This document shows positions 13,601-63,337 of a DNA stretch of 64,000 bases, in pieces. The stretch spans positions 6,138,001 to 6,202,000 of the forward strand of contig CM035361.1 in NCBI GenBank assembly GCA_020137815.1, written 5' to 3'. The notes beneath the pieces were generated by a model. The model made no database searches. It saw only the letters and a program-made list of their open reading frames with translations, and was not told the origin of the DNA. The DNA is from Hormiphora californensis. Its lineage: Eukaryota > Animalia > Ctenophora. Positions within the stretch are counted from its first letter, which is position 1; each line of letters begins with the position of its first letter. Position numbers and translations under genes: made by a program.

Positions 13601-16600
13601 CCTCTCTCACATCACGTCCCATGATGGCGGACAAACATTGTAAAAGAAGGGTAAGAACATTGTTAATGAATGCATCGTATTTGTATTATAACAGCCCGAC
13701 CCCCCTCCCAGGTTGACTGTATCAGTAGCATGTTCCGGGGGTACAAAGGGGACGTTGCAGATACAGATCACCACCCCTTGTTAGACTTGTTCAGGAAAGT
13801 GTGGCCCCATCTTCTTACATCAATGACCCTTTGTGCACGATCTGTTAATGATACTGAGCGTGTTTGCAGGTATGTTGTTATCTTATTCTGGATCAGACCT
13901 TACAATTTACATGTGTATTTAAAACCCCACTTACCACTGGTCGTGAAAAGTGCTTTCAGAAAACCTCTATATCATATCGCTTATCAGTTTTGTTGCTCCA
14001 GCTCGCTGCTGATCGCAACCTTTGTTCAACCGATCTTGCTGTTGTACACACTCGAAGCTTTAACACGCGGAGATGGATCGCACCTTCTCTAGTTGGCGAC
14101 CCGGATGCCCAGTTGAAAATGCTACCACAATTGACCTGAAGAGACTAGAAACCTGTATTATTGCCACACTACGTCGTGCCACGGGGTACCATGAACCCCA
14201 CAATGAGGGAAGTGAGTTTGATCCGAGCAAGTTGACGAGCGCCTGCCTGAACAAGCTAGACACCAACAAGAAGATAAAGATAATCGCGGACATGGCTGGT
14301 CTTCTTTGGTACCGATCTCTGCCCCTAGCACGACTGTCAATGAAACATCTAGAAAAGAAGAGAGAGAGGAATGAGGTTGTCGACAACCATGTTCTAGATG
14401 ATCTGAAGTCCACCAGGGATCGTCTTCACGCCACCAAGGATGAACTGTTGGAGCGGGACCGGAAAATTATCACTCTACAGGATGAGGTGAGTGCCCTAAA
14501 AGACTCCATCATCTCCATGAAGGATTCCCTACTGGAGACGAGTGTCAATGCTGTGCAGACAGTAGTGAAGGAGGAGATCCAGAGCTACTCAACTGTTTTG
14601 GAGACTGCTGCCACGGCTGTTAAAGAGACCTGTGTATCTGCTCTTGCCCCCAGCAAGATCCGGACAGCCATTGCCAATGCTTCAGAGGATCGCACCACCA
14701 ACCTGATAGTTTACGGACTACCTGAATCAACAGATAACACCGATCGGGACAAGGTAAAGGGCGTGTTCCAGGAGCTTGGTGAAGCCCCAGTTATGTCGAA
14801 AGTTGAGAGACTTGGGAGGAGTAGTGTGAAAGTGCGACCTGTTCGAGTGGTGCTGAGGACCAGAGAGGCCGCCAGGACAGTTCTTCGTAAATCAGCTCAG
14901 CTGAAAGACTCTGATTTGTATCAGACAGTGTACATTGCCCCTGACAGGACAATTGAGGAGAGAACTGAACGGCGAGCTCTAGTAGCGAGACTGCGAGAAA
15001 GGAGAGAACATGAACCTGAGAAAGTTTGGCGAATTAGAAGAGATTCAATTGTTGAGATTGAGTGTGAGAGGGAGAGCGAGAGAGAGTCGGAGAGCGAGGG
15101 AGAGTCAGAGAGAGAGGGAGAGTCAGAGAGAGAGTCAGAGTCAGAGGGAGAGGGAGAGGGAGAGAGAGTCAGAGTGAGATCCAGATCAGAGTGAGATAGA
15201 GACAGAGTGAGTGCGAGAAAGAGAGAAATCTCTTTTTCTATATATTGCCTATTTTCTTTCCGCTGCATTTGTTTGTAAGGACATGGTGGGTAACGGGATG
15301 GTGTACCATGGTTATATGCACACATAAGACTCCTTGTCTTCGAGCATCTGGCTGTGTTACACCGTCCCGAATCCCCACTTAGTTTGGTCCGTGTGGTTCA
15401 GTTTTCGTTAATATTATATATTTTATTGCGGCTCAGTGCCACTACCCACCGTGGTAGCTTTGATTGATTGATTATACACGGTCAGACCCTTATCTTTATT
15501 TAAATGGTTAGCAGTCGTATAAAATATCCACAGGTGTATAAGGTACTAAACAGCACTAAACAGTTGTATAAATTGAAAATATCCACAGGTGTATAAGGTA
15601 CGCACTTAGAACGGTGGGTCAGCGTGTTCCTGATGTCTTGGAGTCGTTAGCAGCTGGTCTGATTCAACTTTATAACCTTCAGGCACACAGTTGTGTACTG
15701 TATCTTTCAAGGTACTATGATGTCACACTGAATTTTACTGAAGTTGAAAATACAATTGATATTTATCAGTCGTTTTAGTGTTTTGTTGGGGAAGGGGCCA
15801 TTTAATTCAACTCTCTCTCTCTCTTACCACTTTCTCTCTCTCACTCTCTCTCGCCACTACCAACCACTTTTCAGTGTTATTGTCGACGAGTTTAGCTCAC
15901 ACGCAGCCCTGACAGACGGCCTACTGGGATTGTTCAGTAAGTTTTAATAACACGCGTTTAAAACACACCATATTGAATATCAACCAATCACAAGAATTGA
16001 TAGATTTAATACCTGGCATATAGTTCAGCCGTAAGCCACTGAGTTTTAGTACTGTAGCTGCTAAATCGTTGTTATGTTCTAACCTCCTTTACATTTGTGT
16101 TTCGCGAGCGGGGTGCGCAAAACACAGTCTAGCTAGGCAACTAAATCGTTGTTTTCATTAATTTCATCTCTCTGTGCAGGTGCGATGGGACCCAAAACAT
16201 TTGAGATTCTCTCTGCCCAACATGGCCTGGAACGAAATCCTGACACTGTTGACGACTTTTTCCGGCTGTGTTGCCGCTACATGCAACATCTTGGACCTCG
16301 GTAGGTCACTTATGAAACATTTGTTTTTTGCAGATCGGAAAGTTTTACAACATGTATACAAAATGTCAGCCTTTTCTAAGAAATGCATCCCTAAATGCAT
16401 TTCCAGAAGTCTGTCCATGATAACAAACGAACACAGTAGAAAAAAGTGAAAACACAAAGATACACCAAACTTGGGAATGTAACTTACTTATTCTTACACA
16501 AGATGGCTGGACACTGCTCCAGGCCCCATTCTCACATGTCCTAGTCTTGCTTCCCCCGAGCGTTGCAAAGTGGTTGTTGCAGTGAATTGTCACTAATGAT

Positions 16601-19547
16601 CCTGATTTTTGCGTTGTATAATTCCCTTCAATCGAGTGCTCTATTTCAAATCCGTTACAACCTGTTAGGTGAAGTTAGACAACTCCTCTTAGGAATTAAA
16701 AATTTGAGAGGACTGAGTACCGTGCCTTAGGACTTAGGAGAGAAAGGTTTTTGGTCTCAATCAATTGCCATGGTTAAGTGATAATCGAGAGTCTTGAGAC
16801 TTACCTGAAAACGTTGAAAGAACGACTTGTGCAATTTTATCAGCACTTCGGAGTTTTGACTTTTCCACAACACTTTCAGCCCATGTGTCCTTACATTCCT
16901 GAGTTTCATCAAACTTGACAAGCTCAACTTGCGATCCATTGTTAGCGGAAATTTGAAACCTAGTTGGATTGGTTTAGGTCTGTAGACACGCAAAGTGAGA
17001 TTGTTACTTTACGCTCCAGTTGCGCAAAATTGAAACTGACATCAGTTTCAAATTTTGTAGCTGGTCCAGTTGCAAAATTGAAACTGACATCAGTTTCAAA
17101 TTTTGTAGCTGGTATAGTTGCAGAGTTGAAACTGACATCAGTTTCAAATTTTGTAACTGGTCCCTTTACTAGGCGAGAGAAAGTGAGATTGTTACTTTAA
17201 CTAGGCTAAACAAAGTGAGATTGTTACTTTAACTAGGCGAGAGAAAGTGAGATTGTTACTTTAAAACTAGGCTAAAGAAAGTGAGATTGTTACTTTAACC
17301 AAAGAGAACTGAGTTGCAAACATCTCACTTACCCTGTCAATGTCTTCTCAATTCCCCACAGTATATCTACCCCCAGGGGTGGCTGAACGGGGAGACTTGT
17401 TGTTTGTGTAGCGCAACCACTCACAGTATACGTCATTGTATCCCCAAGAATTAATTCCAAAGTTCCGATCATCACTTCTTGTTCATTCAACATTTCAAGT
17501 TGCAGTGAACCTCTTGTAACTGATCCTGTTAGGATCTGTACTTCACCGAACTCGGGAGATAGAATTGGGTTGAGAGTGTCGTATTGGAATGGGTATCCTA
17601 TGAAGCCTGAAAAAAATAGTTGTGTTAGTGGTTAGTTTTCAACAGAAATTTTACTTTTGGTCAACCGTCAAAAATACAGTTAAATTCTTTCGTTGTGGGT
17701 CAACTGCCAACAATGACTTACCGGAAAACTTGATTGACGCTGTATCAAGATTAGTGAATTGAATTTTGTTTGCGTTCTCCCATCGATAACCATCCGCACA
17801 AGATCTCAAGTCCACCTCTTTCAACAGAATACCATTACAGTAGATAGATAACAAGTTATCAATGTTGTCAATTAGCCAATTATTTTCATTTCCATTGAGT
17901 GCCGCCTTGGTGAAGTTTTGGGCCTCACAATTCTCTAACTCGTACGCTTGGAAGTTATCTTCAAATGTAATGCTTATACCACCCGACTTGACGTTTTGTG
18001 TAAACACTTCGAACTGAATCGCCTCTCGGAACTCTCTATGATAGGTCTTGATGTTGTAGAATTGGGATGCTGCCAGTTTTTCCTCTTTTGGGACATCACT
18101 CCAGAGACCTAAAGGTGTGCACAATAATTTGAAACCATCTAGTTGAGTAATGGGTTTGCATTGTAGAAGACCGCTAAAATGTACATTACTTAAATAAGTC
18201 TAGGATGTATCATTTTCACAAATTAACAAAACCTTTACTTACTGTTTATACACAGTGGTGCTGGTTCCCAGTGATCATTTCCAGTACAACTAACAGCTCC
18301 AGTTGATCGATTATAGCCATCTCGACATTCGAAAGTTGCCGTCGAGTAGTTAGCAGTTATCCCAGATGGAGACCCAGCCACTTCCAAATCAGAGCAATCT
18401 GGTATTGGGTTGTTTTAAATACTCTGCTTGTGAAACAATAACAAAAATAGCTGGCCATATCATATCTTAAAGTGGCGATGGAGCTTACATAGGGAAACGT
18501 TAACTACTTACGGTAGTACACAGTGGCCCACGCTTCTACGATCAAAACATTTCGGGGGTTAAGTTTACCATCCCATTCCGTAGTCTCTGTTCCCGCCTCC
18601 ACTCGTACAGAAGTTCCCTTCGCTTCACAGGACCAAGTGTATGTCTGTGCCTCAGCAGAGAGATCGTCGAAATTCGGTTTTATGGTGCCACAATATCGTT
18701 TAAATCCTATGAGTTTTTAAGTCGTAAGTTACACAACTTTACTATTCAAGAGACAGGTTTATAATGAAACAAAAACAGAAAAGTAATGCGAATTTGTCAG
18801 AGGAAAGATTTAATCCATTTTTTACCTTGTTCGTCGATTACGTATATTTGCGCTTCGGACGTCTTATTGAGTACGCTTTGAAAACCATAATTAATCTTTT
18901 GGCATATTTACACAAAGTTTTCTTTGAATAGGCTAGGGTAAGGGTTTTTTTAAAACCCTTTGTCAGGGTCCCGTGAAGTAAAAGTGATCCCCCCGCCTGT
19001 TCATTGGTGATGTTTTCCCCGAAGGTTCTTTATCATTATCAAACATTTTATCTATGCTGTGATATTCGTTATAAATCCCCCCCAGACGTCGGTGGATTTG
19101 GGGGTTCAATTTGGGAAAAAAAGGGTTATCAAAAATTTAAATTTGGGTGTCTTGGGAAAAACCCTAGTTTAAAATTTCCAAATAACGTAAAACTGAATAA
19201 CTTTATTTCAAAGACGGGGGAGATGGTATTGCCCGGGGTAAAAAAGGGGTGACCGGTATGTCGGGGCCCGAATGATTACCTGGTACATCGCCCTGACATT
19301 GAGCAACAAGTAGTACCGCAATCCCCAAAAAAACCCCCTTTTTTCATTATCAATACAAATTTTCCCCCGGGGTTTTTAACCCCTTCCCTTTTTTTTTTTT
19401 TTGGGGGGGTAAAAAAAGGGGGAAAAAAAGGAAAAAAAAAGGGGGGGAAAAAAGGGGAAAAACCCCCCCTTTTTTTTGGGGTTTGGGTTTTTTAAGGAAA
19501 GGGTTTTTTTCCCCCCCCCCCCCCTTTTTTAAAAAAAAACCCCTTTT

Positions 19548-19582
<35 letters not shown>

Positions 19583-19609
19583 CCCCCCCCCCAAAAAATT
19601 TTTTTTTTT

Positions 19610-19640
<31 letters not shown>

Positions 19641-22548
19641 GTTTTTTTTTTAATTTTTTTTTTTCCTCCCCCCCTCTTTTCCCCCCCCCCCCCTTTTTTT
19701 TTTTTTTCCCTTTTTTTTTTTTTTTTCCCCTTTTTTTTTAAAATTTTTTTTTGGGGGGTTGGTTTTTTGGGGGCCCCCCCCCGGGTTTTTTTTTTTTTCC
19801 AAAAGGGGGGGTTTTTTTTAAAAAATTTTTTTTAAAAAAAAACCCAAAATTTTTTTTAAAAAAAGGGAAAATTTTTTTTAAAAAAATTTTTTTTTTAAAA
19901 AAAAAAAAAAGAAAGGGAAAAAAAAAATTAAAAGGGTTTTTTAAAAAATTTTTTTTTTTTTTTTTCCAACCAAATTTTAAATTTTTTTTCCAAAATTTTT
20001 TCCCCAAAAAAAAAATTTTTTTTTTTAAAACCCACCCTTTTTCCCCCCCTTTTTTTTTTCTTTTTTCCCAAAAATTTTTTAAAAATTTTTCTTAAAAATT
20101 TTTTAAAGGGTTTTTGGGGAATTTTTTTTCCCCTTTTTTTTAAAAATTTTTTAAAAATTTAAAAGGCCCCAAAAAAAAAAAAAAAACCCCCCCAAACCCC
20201 CTTTTTTTTTCCCCCGGGGTTTTTCCCCCTTTTTTTTCCCCCCCCAAACCCCCTTTTTTTTTTTCCCCCCTTTTTTTTTTTTTCCCCCCCCTTTTTTTTT
20301 TTGGGGTTTTTTTTTTCCCCCCCCCCCCCCCCCCCTTTTTTTTTTTTTTTTTAAATTTTTTTTCCCTTTCCCCCCCCTTTTTTTTTTTGGGGGGTTTTTT
20401 TTTTTTCCCCCCTTTTTTTTTTTCCCCCCCTTGGGGGGGTTTTTTTTTTTTTTTTCCCCCCCCTTCCCCTTTTTCCCTTTTCCCCCCCCTTTTTTTTTTC
20501 CCGGGTTTTTTTTCCTTTTTTTGGCCCCCCCCTTTTTTTTTTTTTTCCCCCCCCCCTTTTTTTTTTTTTTCCCCCCCCAAAAATTTTTTAAAAAATTTTT
20601 TTTTGGGGGGGGGGGGCCCCCCAAAAACCTTTCCTTAAATTTTTTTAAAAATTTTTTTTTTTTTTTCCCCCCTTTTTTTTCCCCCTTTTTTTCTTAAAAA
20701 AGAAAAAAATTAAAACAAACCGGGGGCCCCCCCAAATTTTTTTCCCCCAAAAAAAAAAATTTTGGGGGAAAAAAAAAAAAAAAAGGGGGGGGGGAAAGGG
20801 GGGAAAAAGGGGGTTTTTTTTAAAAAAAAAAAAACTCCCCCCGTGATTATTCCCCCTTTTAAAAGGGGGATTTCCGGGGGAGGGGGTTTCCAAAATTTGT
20901 GGGCAATCAGAAAATTTGCTTTAAAAGGAGTTTTTTAAATCCAATTTCAATAGTTACCCCTTTGGCGGTACTTGTAAAGGGGGTAAAAAGGGGACTCCCT
21001 AAATTCGTTTTAAAATTTTTCCCCCAAAAGTTAAAAGGGGGGGGCGGGGAAGGGGGAAAAAAAAGGTTTTCCCCCCCCCTTTTTTTTTAAAAAAAAAGGG
21101 GGGGGAAACGGGGGGGGGGGGGCCCCCCCTTTTTTTTTTTTGCCCCCCCCCCGGGGGGGGACCCCCCCCCCTTTTCCAAAGAACCCCCAGCACCCCCCCT
21201 TTTTTTTAGGGGGGCCCCCCCCCAAAAAAAAAACCCCCTTTTTTCCCCCCTTTTTCCCCTTCCCTTTTCCTCTCTTTCTTTTTCCTCTCTTTTCTCTATC
21301 TCCTTCCTTTCCTCTAAAAACTCTCTTTTCCAAAATCTTTTTAAACTATCCCTTACCCCAAAAACTCCGTATCCCTACCTATCCTCTTTTTTATACTTTA
21401 CTCTACCTCCCCATTTTTACCTCTCTTTTTTATAAATAAGAAAATAATAACATACAGACTAACATGAATAACATTACTTGCCCTTTACTATCCCTCCCCC
21501 ATATTGTATTATAATGTACCTCTTGAATAATTAACCCCCACCCCTTTCCTGAATACTCCACACTCCTTTCGGACCCGGGGCACTTGCCAGTGCTATAATA
21601 TATTTGCCTCCATTATTTCACCTTGAGTCCCCTAACACTGTGTCCGTACTAAATTCAACTTTAAACAACCCCTTCCCACTCAGAATTGTAAGCAGTGGTA
21701 TTATGGATACCTTGATCGAGATTGGAACCATGTGCTTGACGCTCCAGAACAAGGAAGCTCAAGGCAGTGCAGTTAAGTTTCTGGATATGGTCCTTCAACG
21801 AACTGCTCAAGAAGGGTAAGGAGATTGAAATGGAAATATGTGTGCAAGTGGGACCCCGATTTACCGTGAACCCAATGGCCAATTCCACCGAGCAGCCCGG
21901 GGTCCGACTTTTTTCTTTCGCAGGCTTTTGTGGATGATTAGGGTTCTGGGATTGTGCGGGTTTAGTTATTAAATGTATTTCTATCCAGATGTGAAACAAG
22001 TAAGGAATTGCTACGGAGACGAGGTCAACAAATTTGTAACAACGTTGTGCTAGGAATTTCAGGCGGAATTCCAGGTATGTACTATGTTCAGTGGTTGAAT
22101 TATTTTAGTACATAATTACCTACTTTTGCCCTCAATTAACCACTTAAATCAATTAATGATTCAGTTAATAGCTCCACGTTTGTTTTCAGGAGTATTTTTA
22201 AAAGATCCGGTTATATTTCTACATGACCTGGTTGTAGTTTTTGGGGAGGAGGGTACTACCTGGCTCCGTTACTCAATGGGAACTATCCCTATTGGTTAGT
22301 ACACAGTCAAACCCTTTAGATTTGTAACCGCACTGAAAACCACTCTAAAACCACCCAAACCTCAAACCTACCAAACCTCAAACCAACCAAGTCTCAAACC
22401 TACCAAACCTCTCAAACCTCACTTTTCCACAGGTGTTTACGTGACTCAAAATCAAGTTGAAGAGCTGTACTCCAAACTATCATCTACTCAAGTTCAAACG
22501 TTTGACCTTGTCATTTTCTGTAAGGAAATCAACCGATGCTTCACTTGA
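6625..22548 (+). CDS. TNPO3: Transportin-3 / transportin-SR (importin-beta family); N-terminal ~180 aa not found in window
   Basis: Exons 6625-6797, 8116-8269, 8672-8784, 10137-10246, 10922-11038, 11523-11640, 11767-11908, 12572-12714, 13071-13150, 13302-13389, 13466-13575, 13712-13869, 15589-15711, 15875-15936, 16180-16300, 21684-21815, 21989-22074, 22190-22294, 22433-22548 (TGA). Splice phases are consistent. Motifs are colinear with TNPO3 as recalled: LKLGAARREEV, VFKCWGSW, TPGKDLGDL, EVSLNFWF, ERVCRCIRYALR, HSCVLYLSSVIVDEF, NPDTVDDFFRL. Confidence 0.93.
6882..6997. repeat. Imperfect hairpin, possible small MITE
   Basis: GGCTTCTGG..GACTTCACCAGCGTACCAGGA / TCCTGGTACGCTGGTGAAGTC..CCAGAAGCC. 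Confidence 0.65.
8266..8356. mobile_element. Truncated MITE family A overlapping the TNPO3 donor site
   Basis: CAGGTAATACTGGTCCCTGATTGG...CGGTCGGTCCC versus consensus CAGGAAATACTGGTCCCTGATTGG. Confidence 0.85.
8821..9876. mobile_element. Foldback DNA element, 1056 bp
   Basis: TIR CCCAGGTCAAAATTGTTGA, 8-bp TSD CTCATAAT. An internal ~190-bp unit occurs in direct and inverted copies, with a perfect ~105-bp hairpin at 9018-9124. Confidence 0.9.
9930..10101. mobile_element. Tc1/mariner-like MITE family B
   Basis: TIR CAGTCGGACCCCGATTTAGTGG, TA TSD. Confidence 0.92.
11169..11496. repeat. 14-17 bp minisatellite AAACTCCAC(C/A)ATTTG in TNPO3 intron
   Basis: About 20 tandem copies. Confidence 0.92.
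12762..12933. mobile_element. Tc1/mariner-like MITE family B
   Basis: TIR CAGTCGGACCCCGATTTAGGG, TA TSD. Confidence 0.92.
13970..15473 (+). mobile_element. ORF1-only non-LTR retroelement with (TTGA)n 3' tail; 5' boundary approximate
   Basis: Intact ORF1, no endonuclease/RT ORF2, ~270 bp 3' region ending TTTGATTGATTGATT at ~15459-15473. Confidence 0.6.
14073..15194 (+). CDS. LINE (CR1/L2-type) ORF1 protein within a TNPO3 intron
   Basis: Coiled coil followed by RRM-like NLIVYGLPES..VERLG..RPVRV..VYIAPDRTIEER, typical of CR1/L2/Jockey-group ORF1p. The C-terminus runs into a GA-rich repeat. Confidence 0.85.
   Translation: MDRTFSSWRPGCPVENATTIDLKRLETCIIATLRRATGYHEPHNEGSEFDPSKLTSACLNKLDTNKKIKIIADMAGLLWYRSLPLARLSMKHLEKKRERNEVVDNHVLDDLKSTRDRLHATKDELLERDRKIITLQDEVSALKDSIISMKDSLLETSVNAVQTVVKEEIQSYSTVLETAATAVKETCVSALAPSKIRTAIANASEDRTTNLIVYGLPESTDNTDRDKVKGVFQELGEAPVMSKVERLGRSSVKVRPVRVVLRTREAARTVLRKSAQLKDSDLYQTVYIAPDRTIEERTERRALVARLRERREHEPEKVWRIRRDSIVEIECERESERESESEGESEREGESERESESEGEGEGERVRVRSRSE
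16366..19323 (-). CDS. Secreted/membrane Sushi (CCP) domain protein, nested antisense in a TNPO3 intron; 5' end degraded by low-quality sequence
   Basis: Exons ~19323-19280 (IAVLLVAQCQG, signal-peptide-like), ..-18826, 18706-18512, 18398-~18240 (CSDLEV..ATFECRDGY..SCTGNDHWEPAPLC, Sushi), 18173-17722, 17606-17333, 16959-16805, 16661-~16366 (VTIHCNNHF..TRTCENGAWSSVQPSC, Sushi; then a hydrophobic stretch). Two ~130-aa beta-rich repeats (W.I...L.I.CNG-like motif) lie between the Sushi domains. Confidence 0.8.
17018..17299. repeat. Two intronic tandem repeats (3x ~48 bp with palindromic TTGAAACTGACATCAGTTTCAA core; 4x ~31 bp)
   Basis: Directly visible. Confidence 0.8.
19325..21300. other. Homopolymer-run block, probable sequencing/assembly artefact
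   Basis: Almost entirely runs of A, C, G or T. Flanking coding sequence degrades gradually into it. Confidence 0.8.
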
Positions 22549-26172: not shown

Positions 26173-29100
26173 TCATGGATCCCATAGTACCTATAACTAC
26201 ACTGCCCCCTAATTTTCAATCTAAAAACATACCGATGAATTGGATGATGATGTGTGTTGTTCCCCGTACCGGAATTGTTCCATGATTTTAGCTGACTTTG
26301 GACTCACAGGCCCATGGTGTACACCACTACCCGCTGAAATAGGGATCGGATCACAAATTGGAAAACTTACATATATGGATTAAGAGAGAGAATATAAGGA
26401 TTGTTTACTAGTACTAGGGGTTTATTAGGAGAAAACCAAACTTCATTATCGCTAATATATTGGACCTACCTATTATATTAGTGCTAAAATTAGCTACCCA
26501 TTATTTTTGGGACAGCAGCTAATACTGTATTGTAATACTGTATTTTAATACTGTATTGGACCTACATGAATTAGAGCTGCCCTGAGAGGGCGACTTGTTG
26601 TTACTACCATTGTTCAAAAAAGCAAACGCCTCCCACGATAACCGTCTACTGTCGGCAGTGTATCGCGATCTGCTGGCTCCAGGTCCGATCGTCTGAATTC
26701 CGTTGCCCCGAACCGTTATGTGGTGTTTCGACTTTTTAGCTGATCTGATGTGGTTAGTGGGAGGTTTGTTCTTGGCGTGGTTAGTGGGGGTTTGTTCTTG
26801 GGGTGGTTAGTGGGGGTTTGTTCTTGGCGTGGTTAGTGGGGGTTTGTTCTTGGGGTGGTTAGTGGGGGTTTGTTCTTGGCGGGGTGGTTAGTGGGGGTTT
26901 GTTATTGGGGTGGTTAGTGGGGGTTTGTTCTTGGGGTGGTTAGTGGGGGTTTGTTCTTGGCGTGGTTAGTGGGGGTTTGTTCTTGGGGTGGTTAGTGGGG
27001 GTTTGTTCTTGGGGTGGTTAGTGGGGGTTTGTTCTTGGGGTGGTTAGTGGGGGTTTGTTCTTGGCGTGGTTAGTGGGGGTTTGTTCTTGGGGTGGTTAGT
27101 GGGGGTTTGTTCTTGGGGTGGTTAGTGGGGGTTTGTTCTTGGGGTGGTTAGTGGGGGTTTGTTCTTGGGGTGGTTAGTGGGGGTTTGTTCTTGGGGTGGT
27201 TAGTGGGGGGTTTGTTCTTGGGGTGGTTAGTGGGGGGGTTGTTCTTGGCGTGGTTAGTGGGGGTTTGTTCTTGACGTGGTTAGGGGGGGTTTGTTCTTGG
27301 AGTGGTTAGTGGGGGTTTGCTCTTGGCGTGGTTAGTGGGGGTTTGTTATTGGGGTGGTTAGGGGGGGTTTGTTATTGGCGTGGTTAGTGGGGGTTTGTTC
27401 TTGGCGTGGTTAGTGGGGGTTTGTTCTTGGCGTGGTTAGTGGGGGTTTGTTCTTGGCGTGGTTAGGGGGGGGGGTTTGAAATGCCACAATATTGAGAGGG
27501 TCACAAATGGGATCCCTGATCCCTAGGGCTAGTTTTCGAGCCCAACTAGAGGCCTTGAGAGAGGGAGAGGGAGACACCATCGAACCCAAAACTAGCTAGC
27601 TGTCTACCTGGTACTGCGTCTCAATGGCATGTTCCGGTGTATTCGTGGCTTTAAACTGAACTCTGCGTCTCCCATTAACTCTTCCTCTCGCAATTCATCC
27701 CACCTGAACAGGGGAATATAAAACCCAAACTAAAAGGGCCACCCGAGTGGGGGAAATAGTGATTTATCAAACCCTCTCAAGCTTAGAGCGCTGTGTGAGC
27801 CACACCTCGGTAAAATAGACTGTTGTAAAAACTAAAAAGGCCAACAATTGGATTTTGTGATACGGTCATACCCCCTGATGAATGGAAAATTATAGGAAAA
27901 TTAAAATCATATCGAGTGCAATGTATCAGCACCCCATCATGTCCATTTGGAGGTTAGCATATCGAATTCTTCAACACCCCATGGCCATACCACGGTGATA
28001 CCTCCCCCCCCCCTGGTGAGAGAGACTATAAAAAGTCTTATAGTTCGGAAATCAGTTTCTCGAGTTCGCGAACGTTCGTCTGCACCCCATGGTCACCGAA
28101 CCCTTTGTGCTGTTGAACAATACAACGAACCCCCACAGAGCGTCCTAATTTTGAAATAAAATAACGGCCACACAACCTACTCAAACCTACTCAAATAAAA
28201 TTCGACGGTTTGAGCCACACAACCTACCTGTCAGGTGAGATATGAAGACTCTTCAGTGCGTCAGTGAGACCATCAAACCCAACGCTGCCCCGTAACATTC
28301 TGAGCTGGTAGTGATTAATAGCACCCAAGGATTTCATGTCGTCCAATCGTAATGATCGTAGTAGGGAGACCGTCTCAAATTGTAACTTATACCGGGTCGC
28401 CCATTTCCTGTTAAATATATTTTAGTTTCCTGAAAATGTATATTCTGTGCATATTGGATTTTAGTGAAAGGGTTTGGTAGATCAACACACATAGTCAGAC
28501 TTCAGAGAAGAATCGCTAGAATTTGACTCCTACTTCAACTCTTGGTTACGAAAAAAACTCTCTGGCAAGGGAGGGGTAACTTCTTTACTAACCTGAACTC
28601 ATCATTAGATTCCTCATAAAACTGTATCTCCTACCTGAACTCATCATTAGATTCCTCATAAAACTGTATCTCCTACCTGAACTCATCATTAGATTCCTCA
28701 TAAAACTGTATCTCCTACCTGAACTCATCATTAGATTCCTCATAAAACTGTATCTCCTACCTAAATTCATCATTAGATTCCTCATAAAACTGTATCTCCT
28801 ACCTGAACTCATCATTAGATTCCTCATAAAACTGTATCTCCTACCTGAACTCATCATTAGATTCCTCATAAAACTGTATGTCCTACCTGAACTCATCATT
28901 AGATTCCTCATAAAACTGTATGTCCTACCTGAACTCATCATTAGATTCCTCATAAAACTGTATGTCCTACCTGAACTCATCATTAGATTCCTCATAAAAC
29001 TGTATCTCCTACCTGAACTCATCATTAGATTCCTCATAAAACTGTATCTCCTACCTGAACTCATCATTAGATTCCTCATAAAACTGTATGTCCTACCTGA

Positions 29101-30674
29101 ACTCATCATTAGATTCCTCATAAAACTGTATGTCCTACCTGAACTCATCATTAGATTCCTCATAAAACTGTATCTCCTACCTGAACTCATCATTAGATTC
29201 CTCATAAAACTGTATCTCCTACCTGAATTCATCATTAGATTCCTCATAAAACTGTATGTCCTACCTGAACTCATCATTAGATTCCTCATAAAACTGTATC
29301 TCCTACCTGAACTCATCATTAGATTCCTCATAAAACTGTATGTCCTACCTGAACTCATCATTAGATTCCTCATAAAACTGTATCTCCTACCTGAACTCAT
29401 CATTAGATTCCTCATAAAACTGTATCTCCTACCTGAACTCATCATTAGATTCCTCATAAAACTGTATGTCCTACCTGAACTCATCATTAGATTCCTCATA
29501 AAACTGTATCTCCTACCTGAACTCATCATTAGATTCCTCATAAAACTGTATGTCCTACCTGAACTCATCATTAGATTCCTCATAAAACTGTATCTCCTAC
29601 CTGAATTCATCATTAGATTCCTCATAAAACTGTATCTCCTACCTGAACTCATCATTAGATTCCTCATAAAACTGTATCTCCTACCTGAATTCATCATTAG
29701 ATTCCTCATAAAACTGTATCTCCTACCTGAACTCATCATTAGATTCCTCATAAAACTGTATCTCCTACCTGAACTCATCATTAGATTCCTCATAAAACTG
29801 TATCTCCTACCTGAACTCATCATTAGATTCCTCATAAAACTGTATCCCCTACCTGAACTCATCATTAGATTCCTCATAAAACTGTATGTCCTCATCCCAC
29901 TCTGAAAGTGATGCTGATGAACTGCTAAACTCACTCCATGACACCACCCGGTATAGGTCAGGGGTATCCTGGTGGTGGTGGCTGAAACCCGTTATGGAGT
30001 ACTCGCTGTCCATCCTGGAGAGGGAGGATATGAGGGAGTGGTGAAAATGAGAGGGAGAGGGAGAATGTAAAAAGGGAGAAGCACACTTTGTACTGTGTAG
30101 TACACACTGTGTACTGGACCCATTTCCCACAAGGGAGATAGATGATAGTTGTGTGTTTGTGGCGGAGCTTAAAATATGTAACAAACAAACAAACAAACAA
30201 ACAAACAAACAAACAAACAAACAAACAAACAAACAAACAAACAAACAAACAAACAAACAAACAAACAAACAAACAAACAAACAAACAAACAAACAAACAA
30301 ACAAACGCACCTTGGTGATGTTGAGTACTCGCTACTATCAACACACAGATCCTCAAACAAACAAACAAATAAACAAACAAACAAACAAACAAGCATACCT
30401 TGGTGATGTTGAGTATTCGCTACTATCAACACACAGACAAACAAACAAACAAACAAACAAACAAACGCACCTTGGTGATGTTGAGTATTCGCTACTAACA
30501 ACACAAACAACGCACCTTGGTGATGTTGAATATTCGCTACTATCAACACACACACAAACAAACAAACAAACAAACGCACCTTGGTGATGTTGAGTATTCG
30601 CTACTATCAACACACAAGTCTTCCATCCAATTCAGATGGGACAGACTTCCAGATTCAATATCAGATATTCGGTC
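26173..30674 (-). CDS. Uncharacterised protein with a SAM-like helical domain; upstream exons not resolved
   Basis: Phase-consistent GT-AG exons 30674-30580, 30014-29853, 28407-28228 (FRKWATRYKLQFETVSLLRSLRLDDMKSLGAINHYQLRML, SAM-like pattern by eye), 27703-27608, 26744-26566, 26333-26233, and a possible last exon 26190-26173. Confidence 0.7.
26748..27478. repeat. ~25-bp G-rich minisatellite GTGGTTAGTGGGGGTTTGTTCTTGG
   Basis: About 28 tandem copies, ending at the acceptor of exon 26744. Confidence 0.95.
28591..29891. repeat. 42-bp tandem repeat, 31 copies (exon end plus donor site on minus strand)
   Basis: Unit ACCTGAACTCATCATTAGATTCCTCATAAAACTGTAT(C/G)TCCT; unit starts at 28591 and 29851 are 30x42 apart. 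Confidence 0.97.
30180..30616. repeat. (AAAC)n microsatellite plus 5 copies of a ~40-bp exon-end/donor unit
   Basis: CACCTTGGTGATGTTGA(G/A)TATTCGCTACTA copies at ~30306, 30394, 30466, 30511, 30575. Confidence 0.92.
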
Positions 30675-32664
30675 CTGAGCAATGTAATTGAGGGTTACAT
30701 ATCAGATATTCGGTCCTGAGCAATTGAGGGTTACATATCAGATATTCGGTCCTGAGCAATTGAGGGTTACATATCAGATATTCGGTCCTGAGCAATGTAA
30801 TTGAGGGTTACATATCAGATATTCGGTCCTGAGCAATTGAGGGTTACATATCAGATATTCGGTCCTGAGCAATTGAGGGTTACATATCAGATATTCGGTC
30901 CTGAGCAATGTAATTGAGGGTTACATATCAGATATTCGGTCCTGAGCAATGTATGAGGGTTACATATCAGATATTCGGTCCTGAGCAATTGAGGGTTACA
31001 TATCAGATATTCGGTCCTGAGCAATGTAATTGAGGGTTACATATCAGATATTCGGTCCTGAGCAATGTAATTGAGGGTTACATATCAGATATTCGGTCCT
31101 GAGCAATGTAATTGAGGGTTACATATCAGATATTCGGTCCTGAGCAATTGAGGGTTACATATCAGATATTCGGTCCTGAGCAATTGAGGGTTACATATCA
31201 GATATTCGGTCCTGCAAGCAATGTAATTGAGGGTTACATATCAGATATTCGGTCCTGAGCAATGTAATTGAGGGTTACATATCAGATATTCGGTCCTGAG
31301 CAATTGAGGGTTACATATCAGATATTCGGTCCTGAAGCAATGTAATTGAGGGTTACATATCAGATATTCGGTCCTGAGCAATTGAGGGTTACATATCAGA
31401 TATTCGGTCCTGAGCAATGTAATTGAGGGTTACATATCAGATATTCTGTCCTGAGCAATGTAATTGAGGGTTACATATCAGATATTCGGTCCTGAGCAAT
31501 GTAATTGAGGGTTACATATCAGATATTCTGTCCTGAGCAATTGAGGGTTACATATCAGATATTCGGTCCTGAGAGCAATGTAATTGAGGGTTACATATCA
31601 GATATTCGGTCCTGAGCAATTGAGGGTTACATATCAGATATTCGGTCCTGAGCAATTGAGGGTTACATATCAGATATTCGGTCCTGAGCAATGTAATTGA
31701 GGGTTACATATCAGATATTCGGTCCTGAGAGCAATGTAATTGAGGGTTACATATCAGATATTCGGTCCTGAGCAATGTAATTGAGGGTTACATATCAGAT
31801 ATTCGGTCCTGAGTGCAATGTAATTGAGGGTTACATATCAGATATTCGGTCCTGAGCAATGTAATTGAGGGTTACATATCAGATATTCGGTCCTGAGAGC
31901 AATGTAATTGAGGGTTACATATCAGATATTCGGTCCTGAGCAATTGAGGGTTACATATCAGATATTCGGTCCTGAGTGCAATGTAATTGAGGGTTACATA
32001 TCAGATATTCGGTCCTGAGCAATGTAATTGAGGGTTACATATCAGATATTCGGTCCTGAGCAATTGAGGGTTACATATCAGATATTCGGTCCTGAGCAAT
32101 GTAATTGAGGGTTACATATCAGATATTCGGTCCTGAGCAATTGAGGGTTACATATCAGATATTCGGTCCTGAGCAATTGAGGGTTACATATCAGATATTC
32201 GGTCCTGAGCAATGTAATTGAGGGTTACATATCAGATATTCGGTCCTGAGCAATGTAATTGAGGGTTACATATCAGATATCCGGTCCTGAGCAATGTAAT
32301 TGAGGGTTACATATCAGATATTCGGTCCTGAGCAATGTAATTGAGGGTTACATATCAGATATTCGGTCCTGAGCAATGTAATTGAGGGTTACATATCAGA
32401 TATTCTGTCCTGAGCAATGCAATTGAGGGTTACATATCAGATATTCGGTCCTGAGCAATGCAATTGAGGGTTACATATCAGATATTCGGTCCTGAGCAAT
32501 TGAGGGTTACATATCAGATATTCGGTCCTGAGCAATGTAATTGAGGGTTACATATCAGATATTCGGTCCTGAGCAATTGAGGGTTACATATCAGATATTC
32601 GGTCCTGAGCAATTGAGGGCTACATATCAGATATTCGGTCCTGAGCAATTGAGGGCTACATATC
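30658..32664. repeat. 36/41-bp tandem repeat, ~50 copies (acceptor plus exon start on minus strand)
   Basis: Unit ATATCAGATATTCGGTCCTGAGCAAT(GTAAT)TGAGGGTTAC. Confidence 0.97.
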
Positions 32665-32779: not shown

Positions 32780-35670
32780 ATTCAGAATTTTCCCTTTTTT
32801 GGGGGGTTTTTAAATTAGAAAAAAAAGGGGGGGGGTTTTGGGGGGCCCCAAAAAAAGGGGCCCCCAAAAAAATTTTGGGGAAATTTTTTTTTAAAAAAAT
32901 TTTGGGAAAAAAATTTTTTTTTTTAAAAAAATTTTTTTTTAAAAATTAAAACCCCCAACAAAAAATTTGGGGTTTTTTTTTAAAAAAGGGGGTTTTTTAA
33001 AGGGGGTTTTTTAAAAAAAAGGGGGGTTAAAAAATTTTTTAAACGAAATTTTTTTTTTTTTTAAATTTAAGGGGGAAAATGAAAATTCAAAAATTTTTTG
33101 GGGAAAAAAAAAGGGGGAAATCAAAAAATTAAGGTTTTTTTTGGGGTTTTTTTTGGGGGAAAAAATTTTTTTTTGGGGCCCCCCAAAAAAGGGGGAAAAA
33201 AATTTTTTAAAAAATTTGGGGGAAAAAAATTTAAAAATTTTTTTTTTAAAAAAAAGGGGGTTTTTAAAAAGGGTTTTTGTCCTTTAAAAAAATTTTGGGG
33301 GGGGGGGGGAAAAACCCGGGGGGAAAAAAAAAAAATTTTTTTTTTGGGGCCCCCCCCTTATTTTTTTGGGGGGGGGAAAAACCCCCTTTCAATTTGGGGA
33401 AATTTTAAAAAACCCCCCCCCCCCTTTTGGGAACCCCCCCCCCCCCAAAAGGGGGGTTTTTTTAAAAAAATTTTTTTTAATTTTTCCCCCCCCCCAAAAC
33501 CCCCCCCCAAAATTAAACCCCCCGGGGGTTTTTTTGGGTTTTTTTTGGGCCCCCTTTTTAAACCCCCCCAAATCCCAAAAAAAAAACCCCCCAAAAAAAA
33601 AAGGGGGGGGCCCCAAAAAAAAAGGGGGCCCCCCAAAAAAAAGGGGGGGGGGGAAAGGGGGGGAAAAAAAAAAAGGGGGGAACCCCCCCCAAAAAAACCC
33701 CCGGGGGGGGGGGGGGGGGGGGGGGGCCCCCCCCCCGGGGGGGGGGGGGGGGCCCCCCGGGGGGGGGGGGGTTGGGGGGTTTCCCGGGGGGGGGGGGCCC
33801 CCCAAAAAAGGGGGGGGGGGGTTTGGGGGGAAAACATTTAAAAATTAAAACCCTTTTAAAGGGGGAAATTTTTTAAAAAAAAAAAAAAAACCCCCAAAAA
33901 TTTTTTAAAAACCCCCTTTTTGGGAAAAAAAAAATTTTTGGGAAAAAAGGGGGGGGGGGGCCCCCCCCTGGGTTTTTTTTTTTAAAAAAAAAAAATTTTT
34001 AAAATTGGGAAAAATTTAAAAAAATTTTTTTGGGGAAAAGGAAAAGGGGGGGAGAAAAGGGGGGGTTTTTTTTTTTTTTAAAAAAAAAAATTTTTTAAAA
34101 AAAAAAAAAAATTTTTATAATTTTAAAAAGGGGGGGAAAAAAGGGGGGGTTTTTAAAAAAAAAACTTTTAAAAATTTTTTCCCAAAAAAGGGGGGGGGAA
34201 AAAAAAAAAAAGGGGGGTTTTAAAAATTTTTAAGGGGAATAAAGGGGGGGGTTAGGGGAGAGAAAAACCAAAATTTGGTTTGGTTTTTTAAAAAATTTTG
34301 GGCCCCAAAAAACCCGGGGGAAAAACCCCCCCCGGGGGGGGAAAAGGGGGAAAAAAAAAACCCCGGGGGGGCCGGGGGGTTTTTTTTTGTTTCCCTTTTT
34401 TTTGGGGGGGGGGAAAATTTTTTAAAAAACCCGGGGGAAAAAAAAAATTTTCCCCGGTTAAAACCCCCCTTTTTTTTCCCCAAAAAAATTTTAAAAACCC
34501 CCAAAAATTTTTTAAAAAATTTTTAAACCCCCTTTTTTTTTTGGGAAAAGGGGGCCCTTTTTTTTCCCCCCCCCTTTTTAAAAAAAAAACCCCCGGGGGG
34601 GGGGAAAAAAAACCCCGGGGAAAAATTTTTAAAAAAGAAGAAAAAAAAAGGGGAAACCCCCTTTTTGGGGGAAAAAGGGGAAAAAAAAAGAAAAAAGGGG
34701 GTTTTTTTAAAAAAGGGGGGGGAAAAAAAAAAAAAAAGGGAAAAAAAAAAGGGGGGGGGAGCTAAGGGGGGGGGGGGAAAAGGGCCCCCGGGGGGGGGGG
34801 TTTTTTTTTAAAGGGGAAAAAAAATTTTTTTAAAAAAGGGGGGGGAAAAAAAAAAAAAAAAAAAAAGGGGGGGAGGGAAAAAAAGGGTTTTAAAAAAATT
34901 AAAAAAAAAAAAAGGGGTTTTAAAAAAAAAAAGAAAAAAGGGGGGGGGGGAAAAAAAAAAGGGGGGGGGGGGGGGAAAAAAAAAAAAAGGGGGGGGGGGG
35001 GTTTTAAAAACCAAAGCCAAAAAAGGGAAAAAGGGGAAAAAAAAAAAGAGAGGGGGGGAAAAAGGGGGGAAAAAAAGGGGGGGGGTTTTTTTTAAAAAAG
35101 GGCTAAAAAAGGGGGAAAAAATTTGAAAAAAGGGGGAAAAAAAAAGGGGGTTTTTTAAAAAAAAAAATTTTTCAAGGGTTTCAAAAATTTAAAAAAACCA
35201 AAAAAAAAATTTAAAAAAAAAAAAAATTTTTTTTTTGGGAAAAAAGGTTTCCCCCCTTTTTTAAAAATTTCCCCTTTTTTTTTAAAAAAAAAAAAAAAAA
35301 ACCCCCCTTTAAAAAAAATTTTTTTTTTTTTAATTTTTTTTGGGGGGGGGAAAAAAAAGGGGGGGTTTGGGGTTTTTTTTTTAAAAAGGGGGGGAAAAAA
35401 AAAATTTCCAAAAAGGTTTAAAATTAAAAAAAAACCCCCAAAAAAAAAGGAAAAAGGGGAAAAAAAAAAAAAAGGGAAAAAAAAAAAAATTTTAAAAAAA
35501 AAAAGGGGGGCCCCCGGGGGGGAAAAAAAGGGCCCCCCCCCGGGGGGGAAAAAAAAAAAAAAAAGGGGGGAAAAAGGGGGGAAAAACCCGGGGGGGGGGG
35601 AAAAAAAAAAAGGGGGGGGGGGGGTTTTTTGGGGGGGGGGGGGGGAATTGGGGGGGAAAAAAAAAAGACA
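32780..35670. other. Homopolymer-run block, probable artefact (smaller ones at ~37020-37750, 40930-41300, 48580-49130)
   Basis: Runs of single bases; ORFs consist almost only of K/G/F/P. Confidence 0.8.
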
Positions 35671-37568
35671 AGATGCTAGAGATGAGAGAGCGTGAGGGAT
35701 AGGGGGAAGAGGCTAGATGGAGAAAGGGAGAGATAGGGTATATTATAGAGATGGAGATAAAGAAAGACAAAGATATACTAGAGACTAGAGAGAGAGAGAG
35801 AAAGAGACTAGAGAGAGGAAGGGAGGGAGAGAGACTGACTAGAGAGGGAGGGTCGAGGGATAAAGAGAGACTAGAGAGAGAGAAAGACGAGAGAGGGAGG
35901 GATAAAGAGAGACTAGAGAAAGAGAAAGAGACTAGAGAGAGGAAGGGAGGGAGAGAGACTAAAGAGAGAGATAAAGACTAGAGAGAGAAAGACTAGAGAA
36001 GGAGGGCTAAAGAGAGACTAAAGAGAGAGAGAGATAAAGACTAGAGAGGGACTGAAGGAGAACTAAAGGGGACAATGTGTTGCAGTAGAGAGTTTCAACA
36101 AATAGACGTGAAAAATGTCGAAACATATAGAAACATATAGAAACACCATATGGTACCCTAGGTGTCACACACTTGATACATTCATGAGTGATAAGGCTTC
36201 AAGGACTTTCAGTCGATATCAAATTCAATGCTTCGGATTTTAATCCAGCCAATCCTTGTTTGTGGTTTGGGCTACAATCGATTTACCGCGGACTAAATAA
36301 ATTCCTCCCGGAAAAAGTTACATCACATCACATTTCATGAAAGTTTACAGTCGAGAGAAATTAAAATATAATAAAAAATAATAAAAGAGAGAAAATAAAA
36401 GTGGGTTTTGTAATTGATAAGATGGCTGATTTGGCAGAATATAGTGCTGCTGATTTGATGAGATCTCAGATCTGCATAGATCAGGTACAAGTTACAGCAA
36501 AAAGAGCAATAAAGAGAGACAACTGGGTAGCTCTTCTGCAGTTAAAAAAAGAAAGAGTGAAGGGCGGGGGCAACTTGGGTACGGTGTACCCCCAACTTGG
36601 GTGCACCCCCATCCCGAACTAAACGTAGTGCGCGTGATAACATGAGACTGAGAGAGACAGCGCAGGAGGATAGAAGAAAGAGGGGATATTAAAAAAAGAA
36701 AGAGTGAAGGGCGGGGCGGCAACTAATGGAGAGCTTTTAATAGAATGCAGCGCATGTCAAATTACCTAAACACCCAATTTTTGTGCATTTACATGAGGCG
36801 TGTCCCTGACCGTGACGAGGGCAGACCAAGCCTTGACTGATTCTGCAGAGACTCTTCAAAGTCGACATTATATCTCACGATCATCCCGCATCCGGTCACA
36901 AATAATTGATGCATATTATACAATATTATGCAATAATGCCCAAACCAACGAATAACTGAATAATACTATGTATTAGTAAAGAGTAATTCAAGTTGACGAT
37001 ATGAGTGATTTAACCCGAAAGGGCATCTCCTTTCCCCCGGGTGGTGTAAAGACTTTTAGAGCTATTTGACCGGAAAAAAAGGAAAACCCAAAAAGAAAGG
37101 GAAAAAAAGGAGAGATTAAAAAGGAAAAAAAAGAAAGGAAAAAGGGGGAGATGAGAAAAAGGGCGGGGGGGGGGAAAGAGAGGTTGAAGAGAAGAAGGAA
37201 AAAAGAAAAAGGAGGGGGGGAGAGAGGGGGAGGGAGAAAAAACGAAGGGGAAAAGGAGAAAAAAGAGAAAACAAAAAAAAGCAAAAAAAAAAAGCGGAAG
37301 GAGATTGGGGAGGGGGAGAAGGAAAAGCCGGGGGGGGGGCGAGAGAGAGAGGAAAAAGGGGTGAGAGGGGAGAGTTTTTTGGGGGAAGAGGGGAGAGAGA
37401 GGAGAGAGGGGGGAGGGGGAAGAGAGAGAGAGACCGGGGGAGAGAGAAAAGAAGGGGAGAAGGGGGGGGGAGAGAGAGAAAGGGAGAGAAAAAGAGAGAG
37501 GAGAAGAAAGAGAGGAGGAATGAAAAGGGGGGAATTTTGAGTTTCCTCTCTCTCTCTCTCTCTCTTTT

Positions 37569-50027: not shown

Positions 50028-50949
50028 GGTAGTTCTGGGCTGAACTTTTTCGACCGCTTTAAAGCGCTTTAAAGCGTTTGAGAAAGCGCTTTATAGCGCT
50101 ATAAAGCGCTTTAAAGCGGTACCGCTTTAAAGCGCTTTTAAAGCGCTAAAAGCGCTTTAAAGCGATTCTTGTCGCGATTTAAAGCGCTTCTGAAAGCGCT
50201 ATAAAGCGCTTTCGCAAGCGCTTTAAAGCGCTACCGCTATAAAGCGCTTTTTTTGTTCAAAATCCAAAAATAAAGCGCTTTAAAGCGCTTTAAAAGCGCT
50301 TTAAAAAGCGCTATAAAGCGCTTTTAAGAACGCTTTATAGCGCTTTAAAAAGCTCTTTTAGCGCTATAAAAAGCGCTTTTTTAGCGCTTTCGAAAGCGCT
50401 TTTAAGCGCTTTTTATAGCGCTTTAAAAAGCGCTTGATAAAGTGCTTTTTAGCGAAAGCGCTTTATAGCGCTACAAAAAGCGCTTTAAAGCGCTATAAAA
50501 AGCGCTTTATAGCGCTTTAAAAAGCGGTTTCAAAAGCGCTAAAAAAAGCGCTTTATAGCGCTATAAAAAGCGCTTTATAGCGCTTTGTAGCGCTTTTAAA
50601 AGCGCTTTCGAAAGCGCTATAAAGCGCTAGAAAGCGCTTTAAAGCGTTTGAGAAAGCGCTTTATAGCGCTTTTTAAAGCGCTTTTAAAGTGCTTTAAAGC
50701 GCTTTATTTTTGGATTTTGAACAAAAAAAGCGCTTTATAGCGGTAGCGCTTTAAAGCGCTTGCGAAAGCGCTTTATAGCGCTTTCGAAAGCGCTTTAAAT
50801 CGCTACAAGAATCGCTTTAAAGCGCTTTTAGCGCTTTAAAAGCGCTTTAAAGCGGTACCGCTTTAAAGCGCTTTATAGCGCTATAAAGCGCTTTCTCAAA
50901 CGCTTTAAAGCGCTTTAAAGCGGTCGAAAATGTTCAGCCCAGAACTACC
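50028..50949. mobile_element. Foldback element built of AAAGCGCTTT palindromic units
   Basis: TIR GGTAGTTCTGGGCTGAAC, near-perfect mirror arms. Confidence 0.88.

Positions 50950-56102: not shown

Positions 56103-63337
<7,235 letters not shown>

What the first reader, a model, noticed from the sequence alone, without database searches (positions are those of the whole stretch)
28588..29891. 31-copy donor satellite that reads as a chain of 42-nt mini-introns
The minus-strand unit is GTAGGA(G/C)ATACAGTTTTATGAGGAATCTAATGATGAGTTCAG. It consists of 7 nt of donor plus the last 35 nt of the exon (IQFYEESNDEFR). Each unit begins with GT, contains CTAAT and ends TTCAG, so every junction is AG|GT, the recursive-splice/proto-splice motif. 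An in-frame TAG follows the first junction, so all copies must be removed for the protein to continue. The final copy carries a different donor (GTTAGT), perhaps the ancestral one. This may be tandem-duplication intron gain or recursive splicing caught in progress.
Basis: partly seen in the sequence, partly recalled or inferred. Interest (0 to 1): 0.82.

Follow-up and report, generated by a model that had tools for sequence, protein, structure and literature searches.

The report
Splice-donor minisatellite on one allele
The last 40 bases of an exon plus its GT splice signal are copied 31 times in a row in one version of an animal gene, probably a comb jelly's, while a second version appears to lack the copies; the cell likely cuts at the first signal and removes the rest as one intron, an arrangement already known from human and lancelet genes.

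Summary
The array is real: 31 AG|GT junctions 42 nt apart, 30 complete GT..AG units, an in-frame TAG in each, and a last donor GTTAGT. The unit is misread in the finding: it is the last 40 nt of the exon plus GT, so GTAGGA is a chimeric donor. A second haplotype, in the best-matching sample and in a second study, leaves the repeat just upstream of GTTAGT, so it is probably array-free and GTTAGT probably ancestral. The mini-intron reading is weak: the unit's acceptor outscores only 2 of 37 acceptors in the window, the shortest of 33 introns is 76 nt, and 21 of 37 exon ends give AG|GT anyway. No intron is gained; a relative's protein has one copy across the same junction. This is a boundary-spanning minisatellite like human F7 intron 7 and amphioxus 'mirages'; 9 of 74 splice sites in the window have such copies. 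One-step splicing from the first donor is inferred from those precedents, not shown for this allele. The scan has found this kind before: 46 notes in at least 17 other genomes.

The parts
28591..29892 (-). 42-nt minisatellite, 31.0 copies; unit = last 40 nt of the exon + GT. First copy is the coding exon end (29892-29853); 30 further copies lie in the intron
29853..30014 (-). Exon B (162 nt), ends ...EESNDEFR, phase 2
   Evidence: aligns to a relative's protein P0125
29847..29852 (-). First donor, GTAGGG: chimeric (old GT + exon letters); the only donor whose use gives an open frame in one step
   Evidence: score 7.0, above 18 of 36 other donors
28593..29810 (-). 29 further chimeric donors GTAGGA, each preceded by a weak TTCAG/TTTAG acceptor-like end
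   Evidence: donor score 9.1, above 28 of 36; acceptor scores 0.5 (26 junctions), -2.4 (3), -5.4 (1)
28408..28592 (-). Probable ancestral 185-nt intron, donor GTTAGT
   Evidence: second haplotype in two samples aligns through it and stops matching at 28632; RNA joint across it
28228..28407 (-). Exon C (180 nt), KWATRY...SPDR; no Pfam family; weak SAM-like look-alikes only
27608..27703 (-). Exon D (96 nt)
   Evidence: RNA joint 28226/27701
26608..26744 (-). Exon E (137 nt)
   Evidence: RNA loose end at 27608 equals window 26722-26744; aligns to P0125
30580..30674 (-). Exon A (95 nt), the exon upstream
30311..30616 (-). Four extra copies of exon A's end and donor, spaced by (GTTT)n
30658..32664 (-). 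36/41-nt minisatellite repeating exon A's acceptor and first 17 nt: 51 acceptor-like junctions

Best explanation
A 42-base stretch made of the last 40 bases of an exon and the GT of its splice donor is repeated 31 times on one allele of this gene, and the spliceosome likely uses the first donor and removes all the copies with the old intron as one 1,445-base intron, so the protein would be unchanged. Shown: the array, its unit, the stop in each copy, the gene model. Inferred from contigs: a second allele has a single exon end followed by GTTAGT, so the array is a presence/absence polymorphism; the old donor now sits at the far end and the working donor is a new chimera (old GT plus exon letters AGG). 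Inferred: it grew by slippage or unequal exchange, and probably swapped sequence with coding alleles, since its three recurring variant sites are all third codon positions and one unit has the two changes that the other haplotype carries. Inferred from human F7, 6-16 and CBS: the most upstream donor wins, with some leak to the next one or two, whose products carry a premature stop.
For: Unit anatomy and 1,445 vs 185 nt intron sizes. Second haplotype: run X1 record 8 (547 nt, depth 16.5, equal to the window-identical contigs at 16.5-17.8) and run X5 record 11 (1,298 nt) align through the intron to 28632, then run on for 312 and 268 letters without matching the next unit; about 287 letters of unique exon and intron lie upstream of that point in the window. 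Weak acceptor, above 2 of 37 real acceptors and at the 69th percentile of 396 intronic decoys; real acceptor at 28407 scores 8.4. Shortest intron 76 nt of 33. 9 of 74 splice sites in four genes have a nearby copy, all 9 on the intron side. A relative's protein is 46% identical over 228 columns with one copy of the segment, E 3e-58. Precedent: in F7 only the most upstream of identical donors is used, even against stronger downstream sites short of a perfect match (PMC1557585, parts 1 and 3 of 6 read); amphioxus mirages do not interfere with splicing and vary between haplotypes (PMC3087553, passages).
Against: No RNA is known to come from the array allele. The one RNA contig across the junction (X7 record 14, depth 2, marine metagenome) starts 38 nt before it, four letters short of the base that tells exon from unit; it matches the last unit without a difference and differs from the window's exon copy at position 7, but it has 6 other differences downstream and looks like a third haplotype. 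The first donor (7.0) scores below the 29 copies (9.1) and the last donor (9.0). The upstream-first rule was shown in mammalian cells. The letters beyond 28632 in the second haplotype were not displayed, so 'array-free allele' rests on lengths and depth; a paralog is not excluded. Splice scores come from 36-37 hand-annotated sites, and the intron-side position of the 9 copies is partly built in, because I chose the sites that keep the frame open.
Confidence: 0.7

Rival explanations
1. The array allele is a tolerated weak or null allele: the spliceosome often takes the intact old 185-nt intron or one of the stronger GTAGGA copies, the message keeps at least one unit with its TAG, and the product is truncated after ...NDEFR or degraded.
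For: Copies and last donor score above the first donor; exons ending at donors 2 or 3 (204, 246 nt) fall inside the 62-274 nt range of the window's exons; the best-matching sample is heterozygous; 6-16 and CBS use two further donors (PMC1557585 introduction); the RNA contig matches the last unit.
Against: The chimeric junction is also present in a second study (record 12); the exons of the array allele keep an open frame over 223 codons; in F7 the upstream site beat stronger sites.
Confidence: 0.19
2. The AG|GT junctions act as dual-use or recursive sites: the array is removed in steps of 42 nt or multiples, or the old intron goes first and the array follows as a second intron ending at the last TTCAG.
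For: All 31 junctions are AG|GT; a CTAAT lies 12 nt before each unit end; tandem AGGT sites in human UBC give a ladder of spliced forms (PMC10809524, passages); 2 of 37 hand-annotated acceptors score as low as the unit.
Against: No pyrimidine tract; three G in positions -14 to -4 against 0-2 in all 37 real acceptors; an extra AG within 10 nt of the end, found in 1 of 37; donor-to-branch distance 29 nt; 42 nt is below all 33 introns. Known ratchet points are conserved strong sites mostly in long introns (PMC8605326, passages); this array is allele-specific. AG|GT arises automatically at 21 of 37 exon ends.
Confidence: 0.07
3. The array is an assembly artefact, or the 'array-free allele' is a paralogous gene copy.
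For: The assembly has long low-quality homopolymer stretches nearby; the two haplotypes differ by 5-10% and the flanks of an array-bearing haplotype were not seen in run X5.
Against: Depth over the unit is 21-25 times single-haplotype depth; the junction exists in two studies; both haplotypes have equal depth in X1 and are collinear over two exons and two introns. Ctenophores can be highly heterozygous (3.2% in Hormiphora; PMC8527503, passages).
Confidence: 0.04

Closest known systems
Amphioxus 'mirage' minisatellites (Adh3, troponin C, globins BflGb6/BflGb9, PGBD5); PMC3087553 (6 passages read) and PMC3902484 (1 passage read)
   Same: Tandem duplication of an exon-intron boundary, both donor and acceptor sides, in several genes of one genome; copy number differs between haplotypes; units of 10-160 bp; proposed there as a route to intron gain; reported not to disturb splicing.
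   Different: Here probably a ctenophore; 31 copies against apparently one on the other haplotype; only GT of the old donor is copied, so the new donors are chimeric. Splicing of this allele is untested.
Human donor-spanning VNTRs: F7 intron 7 (37 bp x 5-9), 6-16 intron 2 (25 pseudo-sites), CBS intron 13, LMNB2, PDGF intron 4; PMC1557585 (parts 1 and 3 of 6 read)
   Same: One true donor followed by a ladder of near-identical donors; polymorphic length.
   Different: F7's unit is 4 nt of exon plus 33 nt of intron and keeps the old donor first; here the unit is 40 nt of exon plus 2 nt of intron, and the probable old donor ends up last.
Dual-specific AGGT sites in tandem repeats (human UBC, VCX3A); PMC10809524 (12 of 16 passages read)
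   Same: Tandem units delimited by AGGT; unit length a multiple of three; insertion polymorphism in VCX3A.
   Different: UBC units are coding and may be kept; here each kept unit has a stop, and use as an acceptor is not shown and scores poorly.
Rogers-type intron gain by AGGT duplication (ATP2A1, PMC3265369, part 1 of 4 read; potato RdRp, PMC4974935, part 1 of 5 read)
   Same: Duplication across an AG|GT supplies a GT and an AG.
   Different: Those cases create an intron at a new position and supply a pyrimidine tract; here an existing intron is lengthened and there is no tract.
Recursive splicing at ratchet points (Drosophila Ubx, Bx, kuz); PMC8605326 (12 of 19 passages read)
   Same: Juxtaposed AG|GT inside an intron.
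   Different: Ratchet points are conserved and lie mostly in long introns; these are allele-specific, 42 nt apart, with a poor acceptor.

Membership tests
Boundary-spanning minisatellite (mirage / F7 type) | Tandem unit whose first copy spans a real exon-intron boundary | tested here: met
Boundary-spanning minisatellite (mirage / F7 type) | Splice signal reiterated inside the intron | tested here: met
   30 further GT donors scoring within the range of real donors
Boundary-spanning minisatellite (mirage / F7 type) | Length differs between alleles | tested here: met
Boundary-spanning minisatellite (mirage / F7 type) | Normal mRNA is still made from the outermost site | tested here: inconclusive
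   one RNA contig joins the exon end to 28407 but cannot be assigned to a donor or allele
Recursive splicing ratchet point | AG|GT juxtaposition | tested here: met
   31 of 31 junctions; also 21 of 37 ordinary exon ends
Recursive splicing ratchet point | Acceptor of normal strength | tested here: not met
   above 2 of 37 real acceptors with 21-nt and 15-nt windows
Recursive splicing ratchet point | Conserved site in a long intron | tested here: not met
   absent from the second haplotype; intron 1,445 nt with, 185 nt without
Recursive splicing ratchet point | Splicing intermediates or lariats at the site | not testable with these tools
   all 8 listed runs are kept as contigs, none as raw reads
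Intron gain by tandem duplication (Rogers model) | New intron position in formerly continuous coding sequence | tested here: not met
   the second haplotype has an intron at the same place; protein P0127 from another contig starts to match exactly at this junction, which suggests the same intron in a relative
42-nt mini-intron | Length within this genome's intron range | tested here: not met
   shortest of 33 hand-annotated introns is 76 nt; small sample, no genome-wide set

The most novel reading that the evidence does not exclude
The array allele stays functional only because its AG|GT junctions double as acceptors: the old 185-nt intron is cut first and the 1,260-nt array is then removed in one or more hops, so a segregating minisatellite would be a newborn recursive intron whose array-free ancestor sits on the homologous chromosome of the same animal.
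Probability: 0.07. Interest if true: 0.65.

Novelty: new member of a known kind. Interest (0 to 1): 0.22.

Why it matters
As it stands it is an ordinary example of a described class, extended to what is probably a ctenophore (no such report appeared in the listings). Its modest value is as a natural test: one animal seems to carry both alleles, the working donor is new and weaker than 30 competitors, and any wrong choice gives a stop, so allele-specific RNA would show whether the upstream-first rule found in mammalian cells holds in a very distant animal lineage. If stepwise removal were seen, it would be a rare view of recursive splicing arising from a polymorphic repeat.

Tried and rejected
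No whole genome is held, so no genome-wide intron or splice-site set could be built. Exon C protein: nothing among 56 candidates in the longer-protein search, no Pfam family, no significant PDB match (3 rows, E 1.2-1.7), Atlas hits all under 0.9 with three SAM-type clusters at 0.82-0.83, a lead only; 592 pattern matches in metagenome contigs, none confirmed. Of 4 HMMER hits I dropped P0124 and P0126 as repeat proteins matched by summed weak stretches, and kept P0125 and P0127. A transportin exon search found nothing among 11 candidates, so genes were annotated by hand; Pfam named 6 of 9 exons tested to the expected families. Run X8 laid nothing, which proves nothing. Enrichment of duplications at splice sites was tested and not found: 9 of 74 splice sites (6 of 66 outside this gene) against 94 of 400 sampled intronic GT/AG (from 1,382) and 17 of 452 exon-internal ones, 16 of which belong to the same boundary duplications; so these repeats are spill-over from repeat-rich introns. 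Folding of 1-3 units gave weak structures (-3.9 to -16.0 kcal/mol, no shuffle control). No exact microhomology at the GT/AGGA junction by inspection. No earlier notes on this genome. Paper searches added only the papers cited.

Full report
The observation. TRF reports 28591-29892, period 42, 31.0 copies, 98% matches. On the minus strand 31 AG|GT junctions lie exactly 42 nt apart and enclose 30 GT..AG units; the last donor is GTTAGT. Each unit puts one TAG in frame. The donors GTAGGA (29 of 30) and GTAGGG (the first) are chimeras of the old GT and exon letters.

The gene. Five minus-strand exons (30674-30580, 30014-29853, 28407-28228, 27703-27608, 26744-26608) join into 223 codons without a stop and align to protein P0125 from a 1,135-nt contig at 46% identity over 228 columns, E 3e-58, with a single copy of the repeated segment across the F-R-K-W junction. 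RNA contigs in run X7 support three joins: exon end to 28407, 28226 to 27701, and 27608 to 26744. The protein has no Pfam family; a SAM-like fold for exon C is only a lead. A dispersed intronic repeat from this window hits 516 proteins, 119 of the 120 listed named 'eukprot:sb/...'; I recall these as Pleurobrachia gene models, so 'ctenophore' is recalled and comes from no call.

Two alleles. In run X1, from the best-matching sample, contigs identical to the window have depth 16.5-17.8, and a second set of equal depth differs by 5-10%. Its record 8 (547 nt) aligns through the intron to 28632 and then runs on for 312 letters that do not match the next unit; record 11 of run X5, another study, does the same for 268 letters. 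About 287 unique letters of exon and intron lie upstream of that point in the window, which fits a single exon end followed by GTTAGT. Those letters were not displayed, so this is inference. The array is supported by depth of 21-25 times the single-haplotype level in X1 and by a 72-nt X5 contig holding the unit-to-unit junction; I read 72 as 42 plus a 30-letter overlap, which is my inference. The flanks of an array-bearing haplotype were not seen in X5, and I cannot explain that. The three recurring variant sites in the units (7, 37, 40) are all third codon positions, and unit 26 has both changes (37, 40) that the second haplotype carries, which suggests exchange between the array and coding alleles.

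Are the units introns? I hand-annotated 37 exons and 33 introns in four genes, each set joining without stops; Pfam named 6 of 9 exons tested as transportin-3, M16-protease-type or ANF-receptor pieces. The shortest intron is 76 nt. As donors the junctions are normal: 7.0 for the first (above 18 of 36), 9.1 for the copies (28 of 36), 9.0 for GTTAGT (27 of 36). As acceptors they are poor: 0.5, above 2 of 37 and at the 69th percentile of 396 intronic decoys; four junctions score below all 37; the real acceptor at 28407 scores 8.4. AG|GT is the common state of a donor here (21 of 37), so it needs no explanation. The training set is small and the two lowest real acceptors show that weak ones may be used.

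Context. 9 of 74 splice sites have a near copy within 700 nt, 5 acceptors and 4 donors, all on the intron side, three in this gene. This is not enrichment: 94 of 400 sampled intronic GT/AG sites also have copies, while only 1 of 452 exon-internal sites has one unrelated to a boundary duplication. Duplications are common, are absent from exon interiors, and survive across a boundary when the extra copies fall in the intron.

Mechanism. Most likely (0.70) the first donor is used and 1,445 nt leave as one intron. This rests on precedent: in F7 only the most upstream of identical donors is used, even against stronger ones short of perfect, while 6-16 and CBS leak to two more (PMC1557585). Against it, the first donor is the weakest of the 31, the rule was shown in mammalian cells, and the only RNA contig across the junction (depth 2) matches the last unit rather than the window's exon copy, though it stops four letters short of the deciding base and seems to be a third haplotype. 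A weak or null allele gets 0.19, stepwise removal 0.07, artefact or paralog 0.04.

Comparison. It works like, and by three of four tested features is a member of, the boundary-spanning minisatellites called mirages in amphioxus (PMC3087553, PMC3902484); the fourth feature, normal mRNA from this allele, is inconclusive. It fails the tests for a ratchet point (PMC8605326) and for Rogers-type intron gain (PMC3265369, PMC4974935). UBC shows that AGGT arrays can be used both ways (PMC10809524), which keeps the recursive reading open. I found the F7 paper myself; the mirage lead came from earlier notes of this scan, which hold 46 similar findings in at least 17 genomes. No supplements were read. The listings (19 of 22 papers; 15 of 78) showed no ctenophore case; that is weak evidence of absence.

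Verdict: real, polymorphic, new member of a known kind; interest 0.22.

Noticed in passing
window 30658-32664 (-): Mirror-image array at the acceptor of the exon upstream: 51 acceptor-like junctions, units of 36, 41 or 43 nt, each with a strong acceptor (the last scores 11.4) and an in-frame stop; a 5-nt microhomology (GATAT) lies at the unit junction. Fifty strong decoy acceptors may be a harder splicing problem than the donor array.
   Followed up: partly
window 30311-30616 (-): Four extra copies of exon A's end and donor, separated by (GTTT)n; three neighbouring splice sites of this gene are thus multiplied.
   Followed up: partly
window 60545-60906, 61910-62032, 56763-56816 (-): Acceptor-spanning repeats in an insulysin/nardilysin-like gene: an 82-nt array, a 62-nt duplication and a triple acceptor; the 3'-most site keeps the frame.
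   Followed up: partly
window 11028-11092, 13031-13075, 15520-15605 (+): Transportin-3-like gene: one donor duplicated 37 nt downstream, one acceptor duplicated 55 nt upstream, and a looser acceptor duplication near 13031/13071 seen by eye but not counted by the script.
   Followed up: partly
window 3100-3390 (-): ANF-receptor-domain gene: donor at 3369 copied twice into the intron.
   Followed up: partly
window 28429 (-): An alternative acceptor 22 nt upstream of the used one scores higher (10.9 vs 8.4) but is out of frame with a stop; the second haplotype has a 44-nt replacement across it.
   Followed up: partly
window 19300-21260, 32800-35700: Kilobase stretches of mixed homopolymer runs that look like low-quality sequence in the assembly; upstream exons of the focal gene may be lost there.
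   Followed up: no
window 14030-15070 (+): A long open frame inside an intron of the transportin-like gene, resembling a retrotransposon ORF1 (recalled resemblance).
   Followed up: no
window 50055-50922 and 58065-58818: Palindrome-rich repeat tracts (AAAGCGCTTT units; TCATGA units) that look like foldback elements.
   Followed up: no
window 26750-27471, 11169-11490, 61258-61619: Minisatellites of 26, 15 and 11 nt that end just upstream of an acceptor without including it.
   Followed up: no
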